This document shows, one piece after another, positions 12,075 through 57,731 of a stretch of 64,000 nt of DNA; the stretch's first letter is position 1; every line of letters begins with the position of its first letter. Below the pieces are notes generated by a model. It did not search any database and was not told the DNA's origin. It was given only the letters and a program-made list of their open reading frames with translations. The position numbers were made by a program, and so were the translations under genes. Location of the stretch: the NCBI GenBank assembly GCA_951406725.2, contig OX597830.1:56110001-56174000 (forward strand), written 5' to 3'. Source of the DNA: Octopus vulgaris. Its lineage: Eukaryota.

Positions 12075-13494
12075 CTGAAAATATTGGAATCAACATTTAA
12101 CAATTATGGTATTGTTATATTTTACAAAGAAACAATAGAGTTGATAGAACAATTTCCTTCTTCTTTTTACCATTTATGGAAGTAGAGCTGTGTGATTAAC
12201 CCTTTCGCTACTATATTTCTGACCAAAATACACCCCTCATAAGTTTCAATTAAATTCTAAAATAATCATGAAGTTAGGCTTGTTTCATTAAATAACTGTA
12301 ACTTTTTTTACTTATCAACATATTAAAGTGATATTTGGAACATAATTAAAGAAAGGGTTCTTAATCAATTCTATTGCATAACTTTTGTCTCAAAGTGACT
12401 TTAATTACAGGTAAATCCAGGTAAATTGAGCAAAAGGTAAAAATATTAAAATTACTCTTTTTTTTTAAAGTGTTTCTCTAGATGTTTCTCAAATATAGTA
12501 GTGCTCCCAGATGAGTCACTATGACTTATTTTACAAACTTCAACTAAACTTGGGATCATTAAGGAACTCACATTGCAACCAGATGGTTTCAGGTTCAGCC
12601 CCCAATATATGGCACCTTGGGCAAATGTGCTCTTGGGTTGACCAATGCCTTGTGAATGAATTTGGTAGACGGAAATTGTGTCGATGCCCATCATATGTGT
12701 GTGTGTGTCTTTGTGCCTGTGTTTGCTCTGCCACCACCACTACTCAATAACCTACCTACTTATCACTCTCTCCCATATATATATATATCACATGGAAGAA
12801 GATGGGTGACGGTGTGCCCGGCTGTGAACGAAGGCAAGGCGTTAGCTTTGGAATTGCATAGTTCCACATTTTCTTTGTGCTCTTGTGATATATTTAGAAA
12901 CCTTAAGTTCACAAAATCAGAAAACTGGCAAGGTAACAAGCTTATCAAATCCTTTGAGCATCAGACAAAATGCCTTGTGACAATTCTTCTGGTCCTTTAC
13001 ATTCTGAGTTCAAATTTGGTTGAGGTCAACTTTATCTTTCTTTCCACTTGGATTGATAAACAAAGTACCAGAGTTGATTTAATGGACATTTTTCATAGGC
13101 ACGTGCATGGTGTGTGATTAAGAAGTTGGCTTCCCAACCAGAGTTTCAAATTCAATCCCACTACATGCACCTTGGGCGAGTGTCTTCTACTATAGACCCA
13201 GGTCAAACAAAATCTTGTGTGTGGAATTGGTAAATGGAAACTGTGAGGAAGCCCATCGTATGTATGTGTGCCTATAAGCTTTTGTCTCCTTATTTTGATA
13301 TCATGCGATAATTGTAAACAAATGCCATTGCGATACAAGCAGCGACATTCATTTCCAATATTCTGCAAAACAACGATAGGGTTCATTATATGAGAAGCCT
13401 AGATTATTGAAAAATGGCAGCAAAAAGATAATTGCAGAGGAAAAAAGAAAAAAAAAATGAAAAGAAAGAATAAGAGGGGAATGTTGTGCCTCAC

Positions 13495-13575
13495 CACATA
13501 AACTGTCCTCTCATCCACATCTTTAGGCTCTGTGTATGGAGTCACACGACGTACGCTGTTCTGGTCTTCACTTAA
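13495..13575 (-). CDS. LARP7: LARP7 coding exon 4, end of La motif / start of RRM1 (LSEDQNSVRRVTPYTEPKDVDERTVYV)
   Basis: LSED...VRR and DERTVYV are typical of the LARP7 La-RRM1 junction; canonical AG/GT; 81 nt. Confidence 0.95.
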
Positions 13576-13774
13576 CTGGAGACAAATAGTCAGAGAATAG
13601 AAAAAAAGGATGAGGTTGATGAATACATGAGTGCGTGTGTGAAGCTGTAAGGTGTTACTCAGGCACTCAACTATGAGTCCATTGCATCTTATAGCAGAAA
13701 TAGATGTAAGCAAATGGACTTCATAAGATAATTGTTTATTCCTTTGTCAACTCATTTTTACATGCATGCATTCA

Positions 13775-14140
13775 TCTCTATATATATAAACGGCAAAATG
13801 TCTGTGTGTGTGTGTCCTTTATACAAATCCACAATTTTTCAGTTAGAGGGCTCGCACTTTCTATGGTCATTCAAAACCGTCCAAGGGTGGTTGTGCACAT
13901 CTTTACATTTCCTCAGTCACCACACAAAGCCATTAAAAAATCAATAGAAGTGACTTTTTTGTGAATTTTCTATCCAAAACTCAATCAAAATGCCCAAAAC
14001 TTGATACGCCAATTGAATGCCAGCTAGCTGTATGTGATTGGTCGGAGATTTGGACAGTACTTGCGTGTATGTGCGCACATACACAGCTGTATATGCATGC
14101 ACTAGCACTATGACCCTGCAACGCTGGGTCATAGTGCTAG
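13775..14140 (+). mobile_element. Non-autonomous Helitron, copy 1 (~366 bp)
   Basis: 5' A|TCTCTATATATATAAA; subterminal hairpin actagcactatgaccc..gggtcatagtg; 3' CTAG|T; no TSD. Confidence 0.85.
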
Positions 14141-14266
14141 TTCATTATAATTTATTTATTTAAACGATTTAAATTAAAGTTTTTCTGTTCTGTTTTCAGG
14201 TTGGCATTCTCAGATGCCGTTATACAAGGCATCTCTTGGAAGTGACTGGATTATAATCTACCTACT
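14141..14266 (+). pseudogene. Degenerate copy of the ankyrin-DHHC intron 1 end and the first 67 nt of exon 2, inside a LARP7 intron
   Basis: 14200-14266 matches 32845-32911 with 7 differences in 67 nt. The upstream tract ttttctgttctgttttcAG matches tttttgttctgtttccAG at 32826-32844. Confidence 0.88.
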
Positions 14267-14395
14267 GAAGCATGTCTTTGACAATTCCAGAGCACACTGA
14301 ACTTATTTTGTGGATGAATTTTGGTCCTTCCTGTACACATACAAATATATATTGTAAAAAATGGATAAAGTGACAAACCTGAAGAAAAGTCTCAC

Positions 14396-14496
14396 CTGCA
14401 GCATGGAAGACGTTGACAATGCTTTACGTATGACAGTCAGGTCTTCAGTGTGGGACTTGATACGATTAAATGTTAAAAATAAAGACAAATCAATAT
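14396..14496 (-). CDS. LARP7: LARP7 coding exon 3, La motif (YIDLSLFLTFNRIKSHTEDLTVIRKALSTSSMLQ)
   Basis: Phase-1 join T+AT=Tyr; FN(R/K)(I/M)K motif; donor CAG|GTGAGA; 101 nt. Confidence 0.95.
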
Positions 14497-14579
14497 CTGA
14501 AAAACAAAGAAAAAAAAATAAAAGCATGAGTTAATTCCTTAGACTGATGTCACCTGGAAAATTCTAATCACAAAGGTAT

Positions 14580-15032: not shown

Positions 15033-16089
15033 TAATTAGTCTAATTTACAAATGATTATTAACCCTTTTTATAAATGTATTTCTAAAGATATAGACTGTC
15101 TATATGTTTCAATTAATTTGGAGAATAATTAAAAATTTTAAATGATTTAGCAAAATAACTGTTCTGTTGCTAATTAGCTGTTTGGAGCATAGGTGTAGGT
15201 GTGATTGCATGGTTAAGAAACTTGCTTCCCAACTATGTGATCGTGGGTTCGGTCACACTGTATGGCAGTTTGGGCAAGTGCCTTCTACTACAGCCTAAGG
15301 TTGACCAAAATCTTGTGAGTGGATTTGGTAGACGGAAACTAAAAGAAGTCCATTGTGTGTGTGTGTGTGTACTCTTGTCTAGACATCACATGATAATTGT
15401 AAATGAGTATTGTCATGATATAAGTGAGGTTGTTTGTTTCCAGTCTTGCCTGGAAAACATGCTTGCGATACAAGCAGTGACATTCATTTCCAATATTCTG
15501 CAAAACATGTCTGGCCATGGGGAAATATTACCTTCCTAAGAAGGTAAGGGTTGAGGACAGCAAGAGCATCTGGCTGTAGAAAATCTGCCTCAACAAGTTC
15601 CATTCGAACCATGCAAGCATGGAAAAGCGGATATTTGAATGAATCACGATCACCATTTTACACTTGTTTTCCATGCGGGAATAGTTTGGATGGTTTGACA
15701 GGAGCAGGCAAGTTTGAAGACTGCACCAAGTTCTGCTGTCTGCTTTGGAAATGGTTTCTATGGCTGGATGCCCATCCTAATGCCAGCCATTTAAAAGAGT
15801 GTACTGGGTGCTTTTAACATGGCACCAGCACCAGTGAGGTAACCAAATAACTTGCAAGAGAAAAACCACCCCAACTGAGGGGAAGGTAGCTTTGTGCCAG
15901 CCGATGAGAAATTAGAGTATGACAGAGAGGCAGAAACAAATGTCTTGAAGCAGAAGAGTTATATGGCTATGCAAGTATAGATAGATAGATAGAGAGAGAG
16001 GGGGGAGGGAGAGAGGGGAAGAGAGGGAAGGAGAGAGAGAGAGAGTAAAAAGCAGGAAAATTCAAATAGAAAAACAAAACTCAACTTAC

Positions 16090-16168
16090 ATCCATCTTTG
16101 TCTTTATCAATTTGCTTTTTGAAAAAACGATCTTTGTGTAAATTTGAATTACTGAAGTAGAACTCCAT
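16090..16168 (-). CDS. LARP7: LARP7 coding exon 2, La motif (MEFYFSNSNLHKDRFFKKQIDKDKDG)
   Basis: Q-x-EFYFS-x-x-NL-x-KD-x-F is the La-motif signature. Acceptor ttcAG|, donor T|GTAAGT; 79 nt. Confidence 0.95.
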
Positions 16169-16489
16169 CTGAAGTTAAAAAGAACAACAAAAATACAAAA
16201 ACAATCTATTAGTATTATGAATGCTGATGCATTAAATCATAGACAAGTCCACACCATTCTCACCCCTCTCCCCGTATACACACACACCCACAGTTTTGCA
16301 AACATAAATTTTGGCACAAGACCAGAAAATTCATGGGAGTAGGTAAGTCAATTATATAGACCCCAGTGTTCAACTGGTACTTATTTTACTGATCCCATTC
16401 AAAACAGGCCTGATATGTGGTTCCAGCAAAATGAGGCAACTGCTCATACCACAAGAGAGGGCAGTTGCTGAGGCTATGCTTTGGAGAAA

Positions 16490-16730: not shown

Positions 16731-16774
16731 TTCATATATAATGCAGAGTTATGATGAAAAAGGATTAATACAGA

Positions 16775-17146
16775 CTAGCATTATGACCCGGCAATGCCGG
16801 GTCATAGTGCTAGTGCATGCATATACAGCTGCGAGCGTGCACACATACACGCAAGTACTGTCCAAGTTTCCGACCAATCACATACACCTAGCTGGCATTC
16901 AATTGGCGTATCAAGTTTCGGGCATTTTGATTGGGTTTTGGATAGAAAATTCACAAAAAAGTCACTGCTATTGATTTTTTAATGGCTTTGAGGGGTGACT
17001 GGGGAAATGTAAAGATGTGCACGACCACCCTTGGACGGTTTTGAATGACCATAGAAAATGAAAGCCCTCTAACTGAAAAATTGTGGATTTGTATAAAGGA
17101 TACACACACACACAGACAGACATTTTGCTGTTTATATATACAGAGA
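16775..17146 (-). mobile_element. Non-autonomous Helitron, copy 2, inverted relative to copy 1
   Basis: Reverse-complement match to 13775-14140 along its full length, with the same TC...CTAG termini between A and T. Confidence 0.85.
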
Positions 17147-17717
17147 TCACTCTCCATTATCTCCTCTATATTGAATTAAAATTTCATACGCCTGTTTGTA
17201 AAAATAAGAGAGTTATCAAAAATTAAAACCCCTCAGTGACTTTTGGCTCACCCTGAATACACACACACACATATACATATAAACATATCAAACATCATTA
17301 GTTATTATGATTATTTAGGTGTTAAACCATAAACAAGACACATCACTAAATCTGTTGGAAATAGCAGCTAAATTTCTATAAATCATATCACATTGTTATA
17401 AAGAAAGGAAGGATAAACTAGATAATGTAGTTCTAGATATACTGTGTTTGAATAAAAGACAGGATGCTCATAGTTGGAACATCTTTCATAATTGGTTTGC
17501 CCTGAGGATGAACAACTAATGGTAGGAAGGATACATCATATAGTGTAGTTCTAGACATACTGTGTTTGAATAAGAAAACAGGCTGGTGTCATTTATGACC
17601 ATACCTCTGCAGGATCTAGACTGACCTGTGGTTAAACTACGATAGCAGCCCAAAGTAGGCATTGACCCAGTTACACAGTAGCAATTTGTAATTTAGGAGA
17701 GGTTCCACACGTATTAC

Positions 17718-17795
17718 CTGTTCTTTTATTTTAACACAAAGAGCCTTCACACGTTTCTTGGCTGGTTTTTTCTCTTCACTCTGGACCGATTCCAT
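17718..17795 (-). CDS. LARP7: LARP7 coding exon 1 (start codon; MESVQSEEKKPAKKRVKALCVKIKEQ)
   Basis: Acceptor ttctgtAG|AC-ATG (exon starts at 17797, so a non-coding 5' exon lies further right). Donor CAG|GTAATA, phase 0. Peptide matches the basic N-terminus leading into the La motif. Confidence 0.85.
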
Positions 17796-22970: not shown

Positions 22971-23142
22971 ATGGCAACAGTTTCCAGTCGAATGGATCGT
23001 CACGAGGAATTAGTCAATGCAAAGGATGCTGTTGGCAATACATCAGCAGAATATTCCATGTTGATGCATGGAATCAACACTTGTGCTGCCCCTCTTGTAC
23101 ATCAAATAGTTCGACAGAACCCTCAATTAGTCCATCAGAAAG
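22971..23142 (+). CDS. Ankyrin-repeat DHHC palmitoyltransferase (ZDHHC13/17/Akr1-like), exon 1
   Basis: ATG at 22971; MATVSS...LVHQKG; donor G|GTCAGT, phase 1, joins in frame to exon 2. Confidence 0.82.
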
Positions 23143-26100
23143 GTCAGTTGTCTTATCCATTTCATTTTCTAATACTTTTAGAAAAATTTGGACGTCCCCC
23201 ACCATTGTATCCACTTTTCTCTTTTTCTCTCATTCTCTTTTTATCTTTATTTTGTTTTTCTCTTTGTCTTACTCTTTCTCTCACTTACTCTTCCTTCTCC
23301 TTTTCTGTATTTCATCTCTTCATTTTCTAGATTTCCCTTTTCTCTCTCTCTTTCTTCACCCTCTTTTTCACAGTTTTTTTCCTCTGCCTCTCTCTCTCTC
23401 TTTCTTTCTTCACCCTCTTATTGTCTTTTTCTCTCTTTTTCCGGCCCTCTTCTCTCTCACTCATTAATCCTTCTCTCTTCTCATTTTCTTCGCCCACTTT
23501 TCTCTTCCTCCTATTTTACTCTCTTTCTTTTTCTTGTTATCTCTTATTTTTCTCCTTCTCTTTCTCTTCGCTCTCTTTTCTTTTACTCTCGCTTTCTCAA
23601 CAGACATATAAAGAAAGACAATAACTTCCTTGTTTCTTTGTTTTCATTTAACATCATTTTCACTTTCTCATTTTGTTTTCCCATTAGTTAATTAGTCTAT
23701 CGCACACACATTCTATCACTCTCTCTTGTCTTTCTCTTAGTTAATTAATTACTTTTTCTTTTCTTTTTGTTTTTCTCTCATTTAGCTTTCTCTGTTTTAC
23801 TTTCTTACTTTCGTAGTCGCCCTCCATGCTTCTCTCTTTCTCTCCTTTCCTACATAAATGTCTCTTTCTCTTCATTTCAATCTTCTTAATCAATCTACTT
23901 CTCTCTCTCTCTCTCCATTTTATCGATCTTTATTAGTTTTTTGCCTCTTTTTCTGTATAGTTGCTTAGCACATCCGTCTCTCTCACTTTCTTCCTTTCTC
24001 TTTGTCGGTCTCTCTTTTTAATTATTCTCTTTCTTTTTCCCGTCTCTCCTTCTCTCTCTCTCTCTCTCTCACACATAAGTGTCTCACTTTTTTTTTCTTC
24101 CCACCACTTTTTATTTATCTATTGATTTATCACTAGGAAACATAACAAACAACAGATAGATCAAAACCCGAAAAGAAAATACGTGATGCTATCCGTGCCT
24201 GGAATATTGTTCATTCGAATCTAAAGACCAAATTTCCTGTAACACTACATTGCCAATGTTAGTGATTTATAATTTAGGCTCAATACTCATTGTGGGGTGG
24301 GAACGTAATCGATTAAATCGAACACAATACTTGTACTTGACTTGCTCGTATTAATATCGACCGCGGAGTGATTTGAACTCAAAATGAAGGTAACTAAATT
24401 TTACAAAGAATTTAGTTCAGTGCTTTACCGATTTCTTAATGTCAGTATCAGAACTCTTTAAGGGAAATTTATTATCGTACCCAAGAGGAATAAAATGTGA
24501 AGTTAACTCCTCTGGGCTCCTGAATTCAGAACAGTCTCCGAAGTAAATACTCTAAGGACTTTGAAAGTTACTCTGGTGTCCCATCCCTTCTGTTGCCCAA
24601 CAACCCGTCAGATTATTATTGTTGCTGTTGTTGTTTGGTCCCAGGCCATCTCTGTGCAAGCAGACCGATGGCCAAAGGTCTTTCCAGTTTTACATATTTC
24701 ATCTTCTCTTGGGTTATCCCGAACTACATTAACGTATCATTTTTCCGTGAGTAGAGAGCTCATAGTTAATGCAGACATTCAGACCAGGTCCCGAGGCTTT
24801 AATAATAAAAAAAAAGGGAGTTTTAGCGCTTGGCGCTACACATCTACATTTGAATAATTAAATATACAAATAAACATATATATATATACACTCGCGCGCG
24901 CGCATACATGTACGCTCATAAACATACACAGGCTCTCGTCACGATCTCTGGCTTCTATATCGAGTGACCAAGTCAAAGGCTCACTAAAAATAAAACGTAT
25001 CTGCCACAGCTGGTTCGATTCACAATGTGACCACCAGAGATAATAACAGAAGTCGATGTAGGAGTCTCAACTACGAACATGGGGAACATTTTCGCTCACA
25101 TTATTATTATTTAATTTTAACCTGCCCGCGAGTGAAGTACCTTTATAGCCCATAAAAATAAAATAAAATTTTAAATGATTTCAGCTTCAAGGCGAAAGCA
25201 GTAATTCTATACAAATTTGTATATCAATGAATTTGTAAAATTAAAGATTCTTTTATTTTTCTCCATACAAGTATTTTGTCCCTGGCCCATAAAGGTTCCC
25301 CACCTCCCCTATACTAAACACACCATCGTTGACTTGCCGAAAATAGCGTCTCAGCTGCATGATTTAGGGCTCGTCCCACTACATTGCATTTTAGGCAAGT
25401 GTCTTCTACTATAGCCCAGGTTAACCAAAGCTTCTCAAGTGGGTTTCATAGATAGAAACTGAAAGAAGCCTGGCTTATAATACATACATATGTGCGCGCG
25501 TGTGTGCCAGTTAATATATTATCAGCCAGTTTGTCTACTTGTAACGAGGACGCACTACACGAGAAATGACCTCTTTTTTTAAGGTCTAAATGAATTTAGC
25601 ACTGCCAATCATTGATAAAGATAGTATTATGGTTTGTTTGAACGTTTTGTTATCATAATGCTATTGAAATACATTGCGTTGTTTCAGTTAATTTTCAAAA
25701 TAATGGGAAATTTATTAAAATATCTTTGTGGCCATGAAGCTGGTGTTTGGAATATAAATTAAAATAATGACGATAGGTCTGCTTAATGAAAAGGCCGAAC
25801 TGAAACTAAACAGCTATAACAAAACTACTGGAGTTTATGTAATGGAATCAACTAGACCTGAGATCAGTGTCCCTTCCCTGGAATACCCACTTTCTATAAG
25901 TTGTCACTATGGGTTCCCTCAGAAATAACGATAATTTGACTAATTTATACTGTAGATCCATTGGTAGTCTCATGTGGGTTAGTATATCAAAAGTATCAAT
26001 CTCTTATGAAATTTACTTTTATGAAAGGTAAATAAAAAGATTAATAATGACATATAGTAATTTTTGAGTGGAGGATCCCTTAGACATGGAATGAATTTCA

Positions 26101-26859
26101 AGGGTTCCCCAAGAATACAAAGGCAGGAAAATGCTGCCTTAGACGATCAAGTGGGACCTTAAATCAATATCTGGTCTTTATTTATATGGTAATATGGTAT
26201 CTACCATAAGAAGTCACAACTGGTTGATGATCTCCATATCAGACGTCTGTGATTGCCAAACACTATCAGCTTTTGCTTTTGTTTGCGATACTTTAGATTC
26301 ACGAGTTGGAGCTGGTTCAGCTCATCTAAGGTAATGCCAACATAAATACAAGGTGGATGCTCCAGCATGGCCAGAGTCCAGTCAGTGAAAGTTGTAAACT
26401 AATACAAAGAAACTTTCACATGTTGTCCAAATATTAAAAGGTCATATAAATACTTTATGATCTTTTCCTTGATTTCCCCCGAGATAATGAAATTATTGAT
26501 TAATTTCCGGAATAGATGGAAGAATGGACACTGAAGTGGACAGACTGCTATTGTTTAGCAGTGGAATTTATTTATTTATTTTTCTTTGGATGGTTCGTAT
26601 GACATGAACCAGAGCAAAGGGAAAGCTGGAGGAAGTAAGCAACTTCTACTCATTAACTGAGTTTGATGAGTTTACAGATGTAACCAACTGCATTATCTGA
26701 TCACCATGGTTATGGTTCTATTAAAACATCCTACGTTCCTGCTACTGGTAAGCTTGGTAGGTGGGAGGGGTGCACTATTGCATTCTCCTGGTTAACTGGA
26801 GTGACCACTCTTGTACAATCTTGGTAGTGATCATCTTGGGATGACCACTCATGTACTCT

Positions 26860-27235
26860 CCTGCAAGGAGTCAACTTGGAGTGGCCACTCTTGTACTCTC
26901 TCACCAGAGGCAACTTAGAGTGGCCACTCTTGTACTCTCCCACTTGTGGTGACTTAGAGTGGGCACTCTTTCACTTTCCCACACGTGGAAACTTAGAGTG
27001 GTCACTCTTGCACTCTTCCACTAGTGGCAACTTAGAATGGGCACTCTTTTATTCTCCCACATGTAGCAACTTAAAGTGGTCACTCTTGTACTCTCCCACT
27101 AGAGGCGACTTAGAGTGGTCACTCTTGCACTCTCCCACTAGTAGTAACTTAGAGTGGTTACACTTGTACTCTCTCACAAGTGGCAACTTAGAGTGGTCAC
27201 TCTTCTACTGTTCTGCTAGGGGTCAACTCACTTGT
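26860..27235 (+). repeat. 39-bp minisatellite, about 9-10 units with degenerate flanks
   Basis: Unit approx. ggcaacttagagtggtcactcttgtactctcccactaga; explains the 13-aa periodic ORF 26876..27244. Confidence 0.9.
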
Positions 27236-27458
27236 TGCTCTTGAACTCTCCTGCAAATGGTCAGCTTAAGGTCACCACACTCGTACACTCCTACTAGGGA
27301 TGACTGCATCTGCATGTCCATGCTGGTGGTTAAATTAAACTGACAACACTTGTACTCCTCCACTGGTGGTTGATTTAGTAGGAGTACACTTAAACTCTTC
27401 TAGTAGCACATTCTTGATAAAAGAGGGATTGAACCAAACCATCTTTGTCTTCATCATT

Positions 27459-27684
27459 ATATGTGTATTATTCCAATATCCTTTGAGTAAAATCCAAAAG
27501 TCCAACAGAGTTTAATATGAGTCCATCCAAATGTAAAGTTTATAAGCAATGTAAGATTCTACTGGGAAGGACCAACTTTAAGAGAATCTTACATTACTTA
27601 TAAGCTTTACATCTGGATGGACTCATATTAAACTCTGTTGGACTTTTGGATTTTACTCAAAGGATATTGGAATATTACACATAT
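27459..27684. repeat. ~225-bp hairpin/foldback (~100-bp arms, ~20-nt loop)
   Basis: attccaatatcctttgagtaaaatccaaaagtccaacagagtttaatatgagtccatcc... and its reverse complement. Confidence 0.9.
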
Positions 27685-28059
27685 ATACCATTATGCCTCT
27701 TCATCATTACATTAATGTCTGCTTGATTGCAATAGTAATGAAGGAGAGGAAAGGGCATTGGTGATGACAATGATAATGTTGATAAGGAGTGGAAGAGGTT
27801 TTAGCATGGGGCTGTCAGTAATAATGTTGATAATGATGATGAAGAAGAGGTGGTTGTGGGGTGAGAGTGATAATGTTTGTAATGATGAAGACGAAGACGT
27901 GTGGGATAAGAATGATAATGTTGATAGTAATGATGAAGAGGAGGTTGTGGTGTAGATGACTGATAATGTCAATAATAATTGGAGAGGAAGGAGTGGAGGT
28001 GATGACGTTAAATTTTCATAATGATGAAGAGGATATGTACCAATAATGATAGTGATGGC

Positions 28060-28480
28060 TATGTTATGCCTCCATTCATCTCACACTCAACACGGAGGCC
28101 TCCATCAAGGTCCTGGAGGAGGTCGTGCTGTCCTGGGTCAAGAGGGTGGCTGCTGGAAGACCCTACATCTGGCAACAGGACTATGCACCATGCAGGAGAA
28201 CCCAGTCATGTTTGTCAGATAATTTCTGCGACCACATCACCCCTAACATCTGGCCACTTAACTCTCCTGACTGCAACTCCCTTGATTATTATGTATGGAG
28301 TGCAGTTGAGTGAGAGATCAACAAAACTCCTTGTAACACCAAATGATGAACTAAAGCAAGGATTATGACAGCATTCACCAGCTTAAACAAGGAGACCATC
28401 CAAAAGAGTTGCAGGAGATTCTGAAATTGTCTGGAGGCGGTTGTTGAAGCCAATGGCGATTTTATTGAATAAATTTACTC
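28060..28480 (+). mobile_element. Tc1/mariner transposase C-terminal relic
   Basis: WQQDYAPC..TPNIWPLNSPDCNSLDYYVWSAVE. Confidence 0.8.
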
Positions 28481-28657
28481 ATTAGTATTTCAAGATTTCA
28501 AGATATTTTTATGTAATTTTGCTAACTATATCTGTTAAAATGAGATGTCTGTTATTTTCATAATTTAGATGACAGTTTACTCACTGCCCTTTGTATATAT
28601 ATATATATATGATATAAATAACACTCACACACATACACACACACACACATTTATATA

Positions 28658-28972
28658 TCTCTCTCTATATAAACGGCAGTTTGTCTGTGCGTCTTTCTGT
28701 GTGTCTGTTTTCTCGTACCCTCACCCTGACCACGGCTTTCAACCGATTCTGATGAAACTTGACACACACATAGCCCAATGTCATAATTCAAAACTAACGC
28801 AGCGAAAATTTTGAAAAGTTCCCCCAGTTCTGAAAAAATCGATAAATTCGACATGGGGTCGAGAATCAGGAATACGAACCACAAACTGTCTAGGGGACGC
28901 AACTCCACCTTTTTTAAATCTCAAAAAAAAATTTATCATCATTTTTTTCCTGTTTTTTGGCTATAACTCCCT
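28658..28972 (+). mobile_element. Helitron-type 5' fragment
   Basis: TCTCTCTCTATATAAACGGCAG...ctgtgtgtctg...aaccgattctgatgaaacttg resembles the 5' end of copy 1; no CTAG 3' end. Confidence 0.6.
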
Positions 28973-29041
28973 ATATATGATATAAATAACACTCACACAC
29001 ATACACACACACACACATTTATATATATATATATATATACA

Positions 29042-29417
29042 CATATATGCATATATGGGTACAGGACGTCACCAACAGTAAACAAAATGAAATACTAAAG
29101 CAAATGAGTTCAATTTGTTTGTGTTCAGTTTCCTTGTATGTTTCCACTGTCCTGTTTTTGTTTCCAAATTTGATCCTCCATAAATTTCAAATTTTATTTT
29201 GGTACTTATGGGAGCAACTGTCTTCAAAGATTCATATTGTCGTTCAATGCTCGAAATGAGGAGTAGATAGACAGCTGACAACTGATGAAGGGCCGTTCTT
29301 TGTGTTACTTGTCTTGTTTTCCATTTGTTTCTTTTGTTGTTTGTGCATTGAACTCATTTGGTCTCGTATTTCACGTTGTTTACTGTTGGTGATGTCCTGT
29401 ACCCATATACGCATGTG

Positions 29418-29421
<4 letters not shown>
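29042..29421. repeat. Foldback element with ~70-bp inverted arms, inserted in (TA)n
   Basis: atgggtacaggacgtcaccaacagtaaacaa...aaatgagttcaat versus attgaactcattt...ttgtttactgttggtgatgtcctgtacccat. Confidence 0.8.
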
Positions 29422-29460
<39 letters not shown>

Positions 29461-30659
29461 TATATTATTACTTGATTGAACGTCACGCATCCATTTCCAA
29501 GTATATATATATATATATATATATATATACTTGACTACCTATGACCTGTTGGGTCACCGAAAAAGTTTCCCAGCAATGGAGTTTTGTTTTGTGGGGTTTT
29601 TTTCCTTTTCCAGGTTATTTCACATGCTTTCAAAGAATGTGACATCGAAATCACGCATAGACGGCTCCTTTGAAAGATTTGGCTGTTATTTCTTGCACGT
29701 CCTGCTACTATGTAACAGGTATTTTGAGTCCTTTATCACAAATAGCTGTTACATGGTAGCAGGGCGTACTAGAAATAGCAGCTGAATCTTTGGCAGTGGG
29801 ATATGTTGAATGCACTTGACAAAATCCTCTGGAAAAAAAATATATTTCACAACAAGGTTATGAATAGGTCTTTTACGAAATATTTACCGTATTTTTAAAG
29901 TCGTTTTCACTTAAAAATATTTTTTGAATATGCCAAAAAATTTTTGTAATGGTATTTGCTTGAAAATGATTTTAAAAAAATATTAAAATATTGTCTGTTT
30001 AAAGAAAGCTAAAATATAAATACTTACTGTACAAACAACTTACATTTTTGAAATCACATTCACTTAGAAATATTTCTAAATGATTAAAATATTGTGTTTA
30101 ACAAAAGTGAAAATAGAAACATTTACTGTAAGAAACAATTCGTATTTTTTTGTTAAGTTTAATTTGGGAATATTTTCCCATTTTGCACCATTTTGGGTAT
30201 TTATACCCCGAAAACCCTTATCTTCACAGCCACTTGTTTCATTTATGTGAAATTTGTTTTATTCCGTTCGTATTTACATTTCAGAGGTAACTTAATTCAT
30301 AGTATTTTCTGCACTATGTGCCAGTTTGGCTGGGTAACATTGCAAGCAAGCAAGATTCAAGCTGACTTTTAACATATTGTAGATTTATATATATATATAT
30401 ATATATATGGAGGAGCACCAAAATCTTTTATGTGTTTAGGGCTTCTATGGGCTTTAATCTGGCCCTGATGAGAGAGATGTGCACACTGACAATTTTACAT
30501 CCAATGAAGCCTTCTTGCTTTGTCTTTCTAGTCTTCACAGGTCCTCTGCATTTAGAGTCCATGTTCCTCTACCCTGTAACATTACTGTTCATAAACAAGA
30601 GTTATACGATCTGCCTTTCACTTAGAGAGAAGCCTTTTGTTACCAACAGAGGTTATAGC

Positions 30660-31024
30660 AAAGAATTTTGCCAACATAACATGGCAGTCCTGGTTTAGAA
30701 CGAATGTTGCTGTAATTTTGTCCCAGGCGACATCATCTCCAGCTGGCTATACGACACGATTTGTGTCCTTTATATTTTTGAACAAGGGACTCTAGCACCC
30801 CCACTCAGCTCAAAACAATATCTGTGTATCGCGATTTCCGGGTTGTTTCCCTTCATCAGCACAGAATAATCGTTTGGCTAGAGGTGTCACTGCCAAATTC
30901 CCATATATAAGGACACAAATCATGTTGTATAGCCAGCTGGAGACGATGTCTCCTGGGGCTAAATTACAGTAACATTCATCCTAAACCAGGACTGCTATGT
31001 TATGTTGGCAAACAATCTTTACTC
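30660..31024 (-). mobile_element. Foldback element (~110-bp inverted arms) carrying a hammerhead motif; Penelope-like derivative
   Basis: Arms at about 30667-30775 and 30905-31024 are reverse complements; same family as 51871-52420. Confidence 0.7.
30821..30865 (-). ncRNA. Candidate minimal type-I hammerhead ribozyme
   Basis: Minus strand reads TCTGTG-CTGATGA-A-GGG-AAACAA-CCC-G-GAAA-TCGCGA-TA-CACAGA: stem I, CUGAUGA core, stem II, GAAA, palindromic stem III, NUH site. The base of stem II is an A.G mismatch. Confidence 0.65.
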
Positions 31025-31465
31025 TAAAGTACTGTTGCTGAATATCTCTCGTTGTGAGATTTACAAATAGTAATTTTCTAATTTATAGAGGTTATAGCTC
31101 TCTGAACTTTCTTCACTCTGTTCTTTCCCCATCTGTCATGCTTTGAGGATATATACCACTGCTAATTAGGTCAACATCCTCTTGTGCCTCTCCCACATAC
31201 AAATACACCTTTCTCTTTTTACCTGTATATAATTACATTTCACCTATTGTGTGTCCATAGTTTGCATTGGATTCACCATATTGAATTTCTACTGGCTTCT
31301 TTTTTTATATACTGAGCAAAGCCATTTCCCTGATGGTAACAGGGTCTTGTCTGTTTTCTAGCTAATATTTTAACCCTTGCCAAGTTAACATTGAGGCCCT
31401 TTGATTAGAGGTTTTGCTTCTATATCTGGAATTTCTTCTGTAATAGCTCCTGTAGATTCAGCTAT

Positions 31466-31769
31466 GTGGAGGCACATGGCCTAGTGGTTAGAGCAGTGGA
31501 CTCGCGGTCGAGGGATCATGGGTTCGAATCTCAGACCAGACGATGTGTGTGTTTATGAGCGAAACACCTAAGCTCCACGTGGCTCCGGCAGAAGGTAATG
31601 GCAAACTTCTGCTGACTCTTTCGCCACAACTTTCTCTCACTCTTTCCTCCTGAATCTTGCAGCTCACCTGTGATGGACCGGCGTCCCGTCCAGGTGGGGA
31701 ACCTATACGCCAAGAAACCGGGAAACCGGCCCTTATGAACCAGGCATGGCTCGAGAAGGAACAAACAAC
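31466..31769 (+). mobile_element. tRNA-derived SINE with TSD TCAGCTAT
   Basis: Box A tggcctagtggttag; box B ggttcgaatc; (aac)n tail. Confidence 0.8.
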
Positions 31770-32265
31770 TCAGCTATAAGAATGAAGCCATCAATATGTT
31801 GTTGTTTCCATGGGGAACCAGTCTTAAACTCCTCTGTAATGGCCTGAGAGTCTGTGATAAATAGAAAGAGACTAAGCGCTAAGCCCTTGTAGAATGTGTG
31901 TGTGTCTATGGCTGCACATACGTTGTGTACTGCACCTTTGCAGTTCAAAAAATAACAAGTGATAAAATAACTACTAAACCGAAATTAGGGTTTATATGAT
32001 TGACTAAACCCTTTCTGGTGGTGTCCTACTATTACTGAAACTAGTGAAAGAATAAACTAGAATTGAAATTGCAAAATTCTTATTTATCTAGGCCCATTGC
32101 TAGACTCTGGTACCTGGGGGTGCTTCAAAATATTCTGGGTGGAACACTAATTTATAGTAATATTCAAGCGGAATTTCGTAAGTGTATCACTGTAAATCTA
32201 AGGGTGTACCACTGAATACTGAGGGAGCAGTGCTTTCTAGTGCACCCCCTTAGCAATGGGCTTGT

Positions 32266-32780
32266 CATCATCATCATCATCATCATTTAACGTCCGTTTT
32301 CCATGCTAGCATGGGTTGGACGGTTCGACCAGGGTCTGGTAAGCCATGGAGGCTGCACCAGGCTCCAGTCTAGTTTGGCAGTTTCTACAGCTGGATGCCC
32401 TTCCTAACATCAACCACTCTGTGAGTGTAGTGGGTGCTTATTACGTGCTACCGGCACAGGGGCCAGAGGAGGCTGGCAAATGGCCACAATTAGTTGGTGC
32501 TTTTACGTGTCACCGACATGGATGCCAGTCAGGCAGCACTGGCATCTGCCACGTTTGGACGGTACTTTTTACGTGTCACCAGCACGGGTGTCTTAACTAC
32601 AATTTCCATTTGATTTTTATTTTGATGTTGGTGTTGACGTACTTGACTCAATAGGTCTCCCCGAGAACAGCAGGTCACTCTACGATCAAAGGTTAGCACA
32701 GAAGGCCTCACTTCATTTGTTGGGTCTTCACAGTCACAGCATATCTCAGGGGTCTCGGTTTTTGTCATTTCCATATCCTT
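32266..32780 (-). mobile_element. RTE LINE 3' tail copy (minus strand)
   Basis: (cat)n followed by ttaacgtccgttttccatgctagcatggg..., the reverse complement of the family tail. Confidence 0.8.
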
Positions 32781-32844
32781 GTATTCATCATAATTTATTT
32801 TTTAAACAATGATTAAAATTTTCACTTTTTTGTTCTGTTTCCAG

Positions 32845-33091
32845 GTTGGCATTCTCAGACACCATTGCACAAGGCATCTCTTGGAGGTGACTGGACTATA
32901 ATCTACCTACTTTTGGAGGCAGGTGCTGACCCAAACATGTGCAATGACTTCGATGAAACACCTCTGCACTATGTGTGCCGTCGTGGAATTGCGTCCAATG
33001 TACACCTAATGTTACAACATAATGCAGACATCCAGCTGACAGACAAGCAAGGACGTTCAGTTGTGCACCATGCTGCACAAAGTGGAAGTGT
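32845..33091 (+). CDS. Ankyrin-DHHC exon 2 (ankyrin repeats TPLHKAS, TPLHYVC, SVVHHAA)
   Basis: Acceptor ttccAG|GT; canonical TPLH ankyrin motifs; donor GT|GTGCGT gives the phase 2 that exon 3 needs. Confidence 0.92.
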
Positions 33092-55925: not shown

Positions 55926-57423
55926 CAGTCATATATATATAATACATATATTTCTTTGGACTTGTATATAGACAAAAAATCTTGCAGCATCCGTCCATCC
56001 TTTTTCCAGGTTGTCTTGTGTCTCTGAGTTCAACTAGCTTTTATCCTGATATTGCTCATCCATAGTCTATGTTGAGTGGTACATTTTCCATTAAGGAAAA
56101 ACTTAGCTTGGTAGTCACAACAAACTATCAATGCTTTTTCTTGGAAAGGAAACAAAATCCCAAGGAGCAATTGTTTATAACTCTCAAAGAAAAGGGAAGA
56201 TAATTTCAAGAAATTAAGCATTGATATTGCAAGTAAAGGAGACAACTATGGACATGTTTCAGTTTTGTTAGAACTTTAACTGGAAGGGTGTCTCTGGCCC
56301 TCTTATTACAATTTTTTCTTTCTCATGAGTTGCTTGCAAAAAGGTGGAAATAATACAAGAAATGAGGCTTCAATTAACTGTGACACTTTAGTCTTCTGCT
56401 AAATAAAATTATACAACAAACCAGATTAATACATCACGGAGAATGCTGTCTGTAGAAAATCATACATAGTTGGCTTTTTAACTCAGTTGAACTTGGTTAC
56501 ATGTGCTTCAACAAGAACAAAAATAATATGATATAACTCCCTGAAAACAACTCTCCCCTCTCCATTAAAATGAGAAACATCATGCTATTTTTTTGACAAA
56601 ATGAGGTTCAGGCTATTATCTAGAATTTACCACAATGTGATTGGATACGAGCTCTGTATCCTGTGTAAAACTAGACCAATCCAAATGCTGAACTCAACCA
56701 AGTATTTTAACATCACATGACTGGTTGCATGACCAATCTTAGGCATAGAATTTTTAGATTACTTAAGTCTAAAACATGAAATTATGAAATTAGTCATGCT
56801 ACAGGTCTTTCCAGTATAGTATAGTTTTCTGATGCCAGCTTTGATTAAGATTATTCAACAAATGTTTCTACATATGGAAAAGGGTATTCAGAGAATTTTG
56901 GTCAGTAATAGCGTCTCTAACAATAAGAAAAATTATAATTAATTGCTATGCTGATGAGATGCAATAAGATTGGAACATCTGCACCTGGCTCATTGCCTAC
57001 AAAAATTAGATTTTCTCTTAAGCAAATAAATTAATTTTGCGTAATTAATTTTTAATTTCTTTAAATAATCCACAACTGTTTCAATATATCAACCCTTAAT
57101 TTGTTGCATGAATGCGTGCGTATAACCTCTGTCCTCTTTTTTCTTTCTTTCTCTCCCTTTTTTTCTCTCTCTCTCATTCTCTTTATTTCTCTGTGCAACT
57201 CCCTCTTCAGCATATCTCCCCACCCATTGCTCTGCATTACCAGAAGGAGAGAGAGAGAGATGATAGACGAAGGAGAAGATGGATGGGGGAACGTAGAGTA
57301 GTAAGAGAGAGTAAGGGAGATGAACAAAGGTGTAGTGGTGGTGGTGGGAGGTTGTTATTGAAAAGGAGGCCGCTTACGTTATCGTCAAAGCGAAGCAGTA
57401 CACGATCGTCTGACTGCCAAGAA

Positions 57424-57643
57424 ATGGCTGAAGATGAGGATAAAACACCATTATTGAAGGGTGCAGGGACATATGCTATCGATGATCCTCGTGATAAGAT
57501 TAGATATTTGTATGAAAGTGGTAATTTAGGCTATGTCAATGGCAACGACAATAGAATCAGCGCCAATAGGAGTCCACTGCCATCGTCATTGGCAGCTGAC
57601 AAGATTGTTACCATCTTTGTGGTTACTTTTGATACGCGATCAG
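57424..57643 (+). CDS. DENND11: DENN domain-containing protein 11 (LCHN/KIAA1147) first coding exon; gene continues beyond window
   Basis: IVTIFVVTFDTRSG matches the uDENN start of DENND11/Anr2-type proteins (IVAVFVVTFDPRSG). ATG in GAAATGG context; donor G|GTAAGT. Confidence 0.8.
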
Positions 57644-57731
57644 GTAAGTTGTGTTCATAACTATGGCCATACTGTATTGTACGATGCGTAATATATACAA
57701 ACATACACACATTATACCTCTCTCTCTTTCT

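What the first reader, a model, noticed from the sequence alone, without database searches (positions are those of the whole stretch)
14141..14300. Fragment of the neighbouring DHHC gene (acceptor + exon 2 start) copied into a LARP7 intron, abutting a Helitron 3' end
Seen: 14141-14266 duplicates about 32786-32911, including intronic sequence and the AG acceptor, so the copy was made at DNA level rather than by retrocopying. The exon part is ~90% identical (7 differences in 67 nt, all transitions) and reads WHSQMPLYKASLGSDWIIIYLL before diverging to a stop near 14300. It starts at the base right after the Helitron's CTAG. Established: Helitrons capture host gene fragments by 3' read-through. 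Inference: either Helitron-mediated local exon capture, or a repair-templated insertion later hit by a Helitron. LARP7 pre-mRNA therefore carries sequence antisense to its divergent neighbour's exon 2.
Basis: partly seen in the sequence, partly recalled or inferred. Interest (0 to 1): 0.7.

Follow-up and report, generated by a model that had tools for sequence, protein, structure and literature searches.

The report
Exon scrap patched into broken transposon
About 105-125 bases of an octopus gene (ZDHHC13) sit as a single decayed copy inside a broken mini-transposon in an intron of the neighbouring gene (LARP7), likely pasted there during DNA repair and only later hit by a Helitron, so it is most likely an ordinary, functionless repair scar.

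Summary
The duplication is real: 14141-14266 matches only its source, 32784-32911 (intron end plus 67 nt of ZDHHC13 coding exon 2), and lies antisense in an 819-nt LARP7 intron. Helitron capture is unlikely. There is no donor Helitron at the source, no new CTRR end and no second chimera, and the Helitron (12/368 from consensus) looks younger than the fragment (P 0.008). The MITE stretch just upstream of that junction matches the source's left breakpoint better than any other of 4568 windows (12-bp exact core), and the match runs across the Helitron site. Best reading (0.7): a break in the MITE was filled by homology-primed template switching from 18.6 kb away, like a single-copy Pack-TIR; the Helitron came later. 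It fails the strict Pack-TIR test because the left TIR is gone. The copy has four amino-acid-changing substitutions, and RNA contigs of 3 of 4 runs splice the intron out whole. Relatives were too close to order the events. The scan noted a similar scar in another genome (e1-9094378). Low interest.

The parts
14141..14266 (+). Duplicated piece of ZDHHC13: intron end, AG acceptor (14198-14199) and 67 nt of coding exon 2. About 14162-14263 is unambiguously ZDHHC13-derived; 14141-14161 is a tract shared by the source and the MITE; ACT at 14264-14266 is shared with the MITE right arm.
14264..14335 (+). Right arm, with terminal inverted repeat and TA, of a 216-bp MITE (22-nt perfect TIRs in the consensus of 30 copies; the Tc1/mariner label is recalled from TA flanks and TIR type). 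9/73 from consensus.
   Evidence: (63 bits, E 3.9e-19 in the window)
13759..13774 (+). Likely remnant of the same MITE's interior, left of the Helitron and in register with the right arm; it could also be a decayed tail of the element to its left.
   Evidence: 13 of 20000 random 16-mers score as well; profile match alone not significant (E 0.15)
13775..14140 (+). 366-bp non-autonomous Helitron-like element (A|TC...hairpin CTAG|T, no target duplication), high copy; 12/368 from consensus, 7 of them CpG decay, no indels.
13640..13759 (+). Truncated end of a multicopy repeat (Penelope-like label recalled), 11/120 from consensus; it stands where the MITE's left arm would be.
13577..14395 (-). LARP7 intron between coding exons 3 and 4 (819 nt, GT-AG) that holds all of the above.
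14396..14496 (-). LARP7 coding exon 3, joined directly to the exon ending at 13576 in RNA-type contigs of X11, X14 and X20.
32780..32911 (+). Source: ZDHHC13 intron end and start of coding exon 2 (exon 32845 to about 33091). 32780-32791 is the 12-bp exact match to the MITE interior.
32089..32264 (.). hAT-like MITE at the source with an 8-bp target duplication (7/8 match; the right copy lies at the fragment's left breakpoint); 24/174 from consensus.
32265..32772 (-). Multicopy retroelement piece (RTE/SINE-like label recalled) at the source, ending 11 bases before 32784; 10/153 from consensus in the part tested.

Best explanation
This is a single, decayed copy of about 105-125 bases of ZDHHC13 lodged inside a broken MITE in a LARP7 intron, likely written in by homology-primed template switching during repair of a break, with the Helitron probably inserting afterwards. 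Shown: the copy, its single source 18.6 kb away in the same orientation, the MITE right arm at its right end, and a MITE-like tract at its left end that also matches the source. Inferred: a break in the MITE's AT-rich interior; the left end paired with a look-alike tract in the ZDHHC13 intron (12 bp exact, 28 of 34 columns); about 100 nt were copied through the acceptor into the exon; the strand rejoined the MITE's right arm at a 1-3 base overlap, losing about 17 bases of MITE. Later the MITE's left arm was lost and a Helitron landed at an AT inside the shared tract. The copy is antisense to its host transcript, is removed with the intron, and likely does nothing.
For: Right junction runs into MITE position 145-147. 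The 60 nt of MITE consensus left of that junction score best at the source's left breakpoint among 4568 windows on both strands of the 64 kb. With 30 single MITE copies as query, the site ranks first for 8 of 30 and has fewer than 10 better windows for 21 of 30. The exact 12-mer occurs once in the window; random switch points give 12 or more shared bases with P 2.8e-4 (300-bp parent) or 7.5e-5 (12 kb). The 16 nt left of the Helitron continue the match (13 of 20000 random 16-mers vs the MITE, 66 of 20000 vs the source). Divergence order: MITE arm 9/73, fragment 12 substitutions over about 106 sites, Helitron 12/368; a shared origin of fragment and Helitron gives P 0.008, or 0.0007 without CpG sites. 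Four differences change amino acids, including TPLH to MPLY, while the source exon is identical in protein to O. bimaculoides. One contig of organism B shows 11- and 7-base losses in the intronic part. No target duplication or poly(A). Nearby source, single copy, small gap and breakpoint microhomology are the features reported for gap-filled single-copy Pack-TIRs (PMC8277862).
Against: The MITE's left arm and TIR are absent (profile search of the window), so the intact pre-break element is inferred. The left remnant is short and AT-rich; alone it scores -0.4 bits, E 0.15. The homology test was made after I had seen the resemblance, and 9 of 30 single copies rank the site below 10 or more other windows, worst 202. 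The right overlap is weak: ACT needs the MITE variant seen in 8 of 38 rows (two loci counted twice), and 3 or more bases occur by chance with P about 0.08. The Helitron sitting in the breakpoint tract is a coincidence on this reading (about 30 of 453 bases, my estimate; eased by the AT-rich target preference in PMC4778049). Dating rests on few sites and a gapped AT-rich alignment; amino-acid-changing sites alone give P 0.08; error-prone repair synthesis could inflate the fragment's age. No outgroup allele was seen.
Confidence: 0.7

Rival explanations
1. A longer local duplication of the ZDHHC13 exon-2 region came first; a MITE inserted in or beside it, and a later deletion joined exon position 67 to the MITE's right arm.
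For: Explains the missing left arm and the 1-3 base overlap with one deletion. The source has transposons within 12 bases of the breakpoint, a case PMC8277862 filters out as possible segmental duplication. The 16 nt left of the Helitron also fit the source (score 12 vs 15 for the MITE).
Against: It leaves the in-register match between the MITE interior and the left breakpoint as chance (1 of 4568 windows; P under 3e-4). At two sites in 14141-14161 the copy agrees with the MITE, not the source. No homology was found between 13300-13774 and the source's upstream DNA.
Confidence: 0.15
2. Helitron 3' read-through capture: a Helitron once at 32783|32784 ran past its CTAG, took the downstream bases and inserted locally in LARP7.
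For: The alignment starts at the base after CTAG, and the source reads A|T there. Read-through capture is shown experimentally, about 11.7% of events for an intact element (PMC4778049).
Against: No Helitron at the source in this genome, nor in the one source contig of organism D (record 31). The copy's hairpin and CTAG are intact and followed by the target T, as in 30 of 30 loci. No CTRR or CTTG at the fragment's end in the source. No second chimera among 40 scored of 1408 candidates. Homology continues left of the element. Ages differ (P 0.008 and 0.0007). Helraiser showed no local hopping.
Confidence: 0.07
3. The same repair patch, but copied from unspliced ZDHHC13 RNA (reverse-transcribed or used directly) rather than from DNA.
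For: RNA-derived patches at breaks are described, with microdeletion and microhomology (PMC5110952). The copy is from a transcribed gene; its mRNA is in 4 of 4 RNA-type runs.
Against: The source lies 18.6 kb away in a 2.8-Gb genome, which fits a DNA template in cis (cis bias in PMC8277862). The priming tract is intronic.
Confidence: 0.05
4. Whatever its origin, the piece is kept as an antisense regulator of ZDHHC13, released from the LARP7 intron.
For: The genes are divergent, with start codons at 17795 (-) and 22971 (+). Predicted duplex -104.6 kcal/mol vs -134.5 for a perfect match. Antisense Pack-TIR transcripts are discussed in PMC8277862.
Against: Seven substitutions in 67 nt, five of which break pairing; longest exact run 17 nt; divergence is at a neutral-looking level; no Rfam match in 13500-14500.
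Confidence: 0.03

Closest known systems
Single-copy Pack-TIRs made by gap filling (Tan et al. 2021, PMC8277862; abstract, passages and methods section 14 read)
   Same: Single copy; source nearby on the same chromosome; host sequence replaces a small internal part of a TIR element (about 17 of 216 bases; their median is 4.6%); microhomology at the breakpoints (their range 1-36 bp); lies in a neighbouring gene.
   Different: Left TIR is missing; identity is under 90%; the source has transposons within 100 bp; distance 18.6 kb is just beyond their under-15-kb class. It would not pass their filters.
Class 2 templated sequence insertions (Onozawa and Aplan 2016, PMC5110952; abstract and sections 5 and 9 read)
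   Same: Donor intact; no target duplication, poly(A) or poly(A) signal; microdeletion and microhomology at the junctions.
   Different: Those are human polymorphisms, often from distant loci and argued to be RNA-derived; this one is old, local and not shown to be polymorphic.
Helitron 3' transduction (Grabundzija et al. 2016, PMC4778049; passages read)
   Same: TC...CTAG element in an AT target with gene sequence directly downstream.
   Different: No donor element at the source, no new 3' end, no amplification, and the element looks younger than the fragment.

Membership tests
Pack-TIR (Tan 2021 criteria) | Both terminal inverted repeats of one element flank the captured sequence (10 bp or more each) | tested here: not met
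   Right TIR present; no left arm found in the window by profile search; criterion
Pack-TIR (Tan 2021 criteria) | Internal sequence over 100 bp with a unique parental copy | tested here: met
   About 102-126 bp; only the copy and the source among 40 scored of 240 candidates
Pack-TIR (Tan 2021 criteria) | 90% or more identity to the parent, and no TE within 100 bp of the parent | tested here: not met
   84.5% overall, 60/67 in the exon; a repeat ends at 32772
Pack-TIR (gap-filling signature) | Microhomology between TE and filler at a breakpoint, beyond chance | tested here: met
   Left: 12 bp exact, P under 3e-4; right: 1-3 bp, P about 0.08
Pack-TIR (gap-filling signature) | Intact TE without the filler at the orthologous site of an outgroup | tested here: inconclusive
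   The four DNA runs laid are near-identical relatives and their contigs break at the repeats
Class 2 templated insertion | Donor locus intact; no target-site duplication, poly(A) tract or signal | tested here: met
   Source exon intact and spliced; junction sequences
Class 2 templated insertion | Microdeletion and microhomology at the recipient site | tested here: met
   About 17 bases of MITE consensus missing between the junctions; homology as above. Depends on the left remnant being MITE.
Class 2 templated insertion | Polymorphic in the population (the P of TSIP) | tested here: inconclusive
   No empty allele among the joints shown (15 of 51); contigs cannot show absence
Helitron (non-autonomous) | 5' TC, 3' hairpin and CTRR, insertion between A and T, no target duplication | tested here: met
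   13775-14140; 22 of 30 loci read A|TC at the left end, 30 of 30 have T after the 3' end; motifs as
Helitron (non-autonomous) | Link to an autonomous RepHel partner | not tested
   No search for the partner was run
Helitron 3' transduction | Donor Helitron directly upstream of the captured sequence at the source | tested here: not met
   None at 32783|32784; none in one contig of organism D
Helitron 3' transduction | New 3' end (CTRR-like) followed by the target T | tested here: not met
   The fragment ends in a MITE arm; the source has no such motif there. A later deletion could have removed one.
Helitron 3' transduction | Element and captured piece of the same age | tested here: not met
   P 0.008 (all sites), 0.0007 (non-CpG), 0.08 (amino-acid-changing sites only)

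The most novel reading that the evidence does not exclude
A repair scar turned regulator: the LARP7 intron, transcribed from a promoter region shared with ZDHHC13, releases a 67-nt antisense strand that pairs with ZDHHC13 exon 2 and changes its editing, splicing or stability, coupling two divergent genes in octopus.
Probability: 0.03. Interest if true: 0.6.

Novelty: new member of a known kind. Interest (0 to 1): 0.2.

Why it matters
As it stands it matters little. It is a worked example of how exon pieces move into neighbouring introns by transposon-primed repair in a cephalopod, and a warning that a gene fragment next to a Helitron end need not be a Helitron capture. The nested insertions in an 819-nt intron could serve as a marker for ordering octopod lineages. 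It would matter more only if the antisense piece proved functional.

Tried and rejected
Ordering events with relatives: four DNA runs (X2, X5, X7, X8 of 24 listed; organisms A-D) differ from the window by about 2% or less in the flanks. Contigs of X2, X5 and X7 run only 24-25 letters into the Helitron, below the tool's 31-letter bridging rule, and no joint skipping the Helitron is among the 15 of 51 shown. Not decisive.

Expression of the fragment: no RNA holder is on record. In four RNA-type runs (X11, X12, X14, X20) the only pieces shown on 14198-14266 carry the 7 source differences and the ZDHHC13 exon-1 end, and 14158-14189 has no cover. This is no evidence either way on use of the AG.

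Homology further left than about 13765: none found; that DNA is another repeat plus the LARP7 acceptor region.

Multicopy-repeat reading of the fragment: rejected; only bases from 14264 on are multicopy.

An inverted 11-mer of the MITE interior just left of 13640 as a fold-back trace: 255 of 5000 random 64-mers do as well, so dropped.

Known RNA families: none in 13500-14500.

Literature: no listing on this locus. Terms searched: helitron+octopus+capture (11 of 12 listed); octopus/LARP7/ZDHHC13, two of three (7 listed); Pack-TIR with cephalopod terms (8 of 3017 listed, uninformative). Only listings were seen for these. Supplements of PMC8277862 were not read, so I cannot say whether its 19 invertebrates include a mollusc.

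Full report
Observation. Bases 14141-14266 align to 32784-32911 at 84.5% over 129 columns. The exon part has 7 differences in 67 nt, all transitions; the acceptor AG is at 14198-14199; the frame stops at 14298-14300. A search of the window's genome found these bases only at the copy and the source, among 40 scored of 240 candidates. The tool warns that such a search gives lower bounds.

The two genes. The source exon is identical over 82 aa to a protein named palmitoyltransferase ZDHHC13 of Octopus bimaculoides, with ankyrin and DHHC domains. It maps to nine exons from 22971 to 47597 on the plus strand. RNA-type contigs of 4 of 4 runs join the exon ending at 23142 to 32845, so the source is the second coding exon. 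The host is LARP7 (94% to O. bimaculoides LARP7), on the minus strand from 17795. Contigs of X11, X14 and X20 join exon 14396-14496 to the exon ending at 13576; X12 showed only pieces of that exon. The fragment therefore lies antisense in an 819-nt intron, 18,645 bases from its source and in the same orientation.

The Helitron. 13775-14140 is a high-copy 366-bp element: TC at the left, a hairpin and CTAG at the right, between A and T. In 30 loci, 22 read A|TC and 30 have T after the 3' end. These are the Helitron marks given in PMC4778049 (passages). The window copy differs from the consensus of the others at 12 of 368 sites, 7 of them CpG decay, with no indels.

The fragment does not fade out at 14266. 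From 14264 the sequence is the right arm of a multicopy, TA-flanked 216-bp MITE with 22-nt terminal inverted repeats; the Tc1/mariner label is recalled, not tested. The junction falls at MITE position 145-147, on a shared T or ACT; the ACT variant is in 8 of 38 rows, two loci counted twice. Left of the Helitron are 16 bases and then a different repeat, 13640-13759.

The left breakpoint. With the Helitron taken out, the bases on both sides of it read like the MITE interior just upstream of the right junction, and so does the source intron at 32780-32811. I tested this after noticing it. The 60 nt of MITE consensus left of the junction score highest at the source's left breakpoint among 4568 windows covering both strands of the 64 kb (28 matches in 34 columns). 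With each of 30 MITE copies as query, the site ranks first for 8, has fewer than 10 better windows for 21, and ranks lower for 9 (worst 202). The exact 12-base core occurs once in the window, and random switch points share 12 or more bases with P 2.8e-4 or 7.5e-5 depending on the parent stretch. The 16 bases left of the Helitron match the MITE at a level reached by 13 of 20000 random 16-mers and the present source by 66 of 20000. So the Helitron sits inside the shared tract rather than at the edge of the copy. Against this: the left remnant alone is not a significant profile match (E 0.15), and the MITE's left arm is not in the window.

Ages. MITE right arm 9/73 from consensus; left repeat 11/120; hAT-like MITE at the source 24/174, with an 8-bp target duplication at the breakpoint; retroelement piece at the source 10/153; Helitron 12/368. 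The fragment differs from its source at 7 of 67 exon sites and 5 of about 39 intron sites, plus gaps. Four exon differences change amino acids, including the ankyrin TPLH to MPLY, and must be on the copy's side because the source protein matches O. bimaculoides. If fragment and Helitron had arrived together, about 5.3 differences are expected and 12 are seen (P 0.008); without CpG sites, 2.3 vs 9 (P 0.0007); amino-acid-changing sites alone give only P 0.08. These counts are small, the intron alignment is gapped, and error-prone repair could add changes.

Capture test. Read-through capture needs a donor Helitron upstream of the captured DNA and makes a new 3' end (PMC4778049). The source has no Helitron at 32783|32784, nor does one source contig of organism D. 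There is no CTRR or CTTG at the fragment's end in the source. A search with Helitron end plus fragment found no second chimera among 40 scored of 1408 candidates.

Mechanism. Shown: copy, source, right MITE arm, shared left tract, intact Helitron ends. Inferred: a break in the AT-rich MITE interior, pairing of the left end with the look-alike ZDHHC13 intron tract, copying of about 100 nt, rejoining to the right arm with loss of about 17 MITE bases, then loss of the left arm and Helitron insertion. This is how single-copy Pack-TIRs are reported to form: 56.9% within 15 kb of the parent, microhomology of 1-36 bp in 67.6%, gaps of median 4.6% of the element (PMC8277862, passages). It works like one but is not a member by that paper's criteria: one TIR is missing, identity is under 90%, and the parent has TEs within 100 bp. 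Its junctions fit class 2 templated insertions (PMC5110952, section 9). An unspliced-RNA template is not excluded (section 5).

Function. The acceptor is on the strand opposite to LARP7 and cannot be used by it. The intron is spliced out whole in the contigs seen. The copy is decaying, with further short losses in one contig of organism B. An antisense duplex with ZDHHC13 mRNA is possible on paper (-104.6 vs -134.5 kcal/mol; longest exact run 17 nt), but nothing here shows it forms. No Rfam family matched.

Limits. The relatives on hand were too close and too fragmented at the repeats to order the events. RNA evidence is contigs of runs only guessed to be RNA. Searches for this locus in print found nothing (listings only).

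Verdict. Real feature, ordinary cause: a likely repair scar in a broken MITE, with a later Helitron. New member of a known kind; interest 0.2.

Noticed in passing
window 13775-14140 (+) and 16774-17147 (-): Two copies of the same Helitron, 91% identical and inverted, flank two LARP7 coding exons (14396-14496 and about 16089-16192). In the pre-mRNA they could pair, a layout that can favour editing, exon skipping or circular RNA (recalled); not tested.
   Followed up: no
window 32081-32789: Nested insertions at the source's breakpoint: a hAT-like MITE with an 8-bp target duplication (7/8 match), and a retroelement piece inserted at its right end.
   Followed up: yes
window 13577-14395: About 695 of the 819 intron bases are four inserted pieces (left repeat, Helitron, ZDHHC13 fragment, MITE remains); the ancestral intron may have been about 120 nt.
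   Followed up: partly
window 17236-17269: A lone terminal repeat resembling that of the same MITE family, about 90 bases from the second Helitron copy (profile E 0.002).
   Followed up: no
window 13616-13626: An inverted 11-mer of the MITE interior just left of the 13640 repeat; 255 of 5000 random stretches match as well.
   Followed up: yes
window 17795 (-) and 22971 (+): LARP7 and ZDHHC13 start codons face away from each other 5.2 kb apart, a possible shared promoter region.
   Followed up: no
window 57112-57657 (+): A 182-codon open frame whose second half looks like the start of a third gene (MAEDEDKTPLL...); not identified.
   Followed up: no
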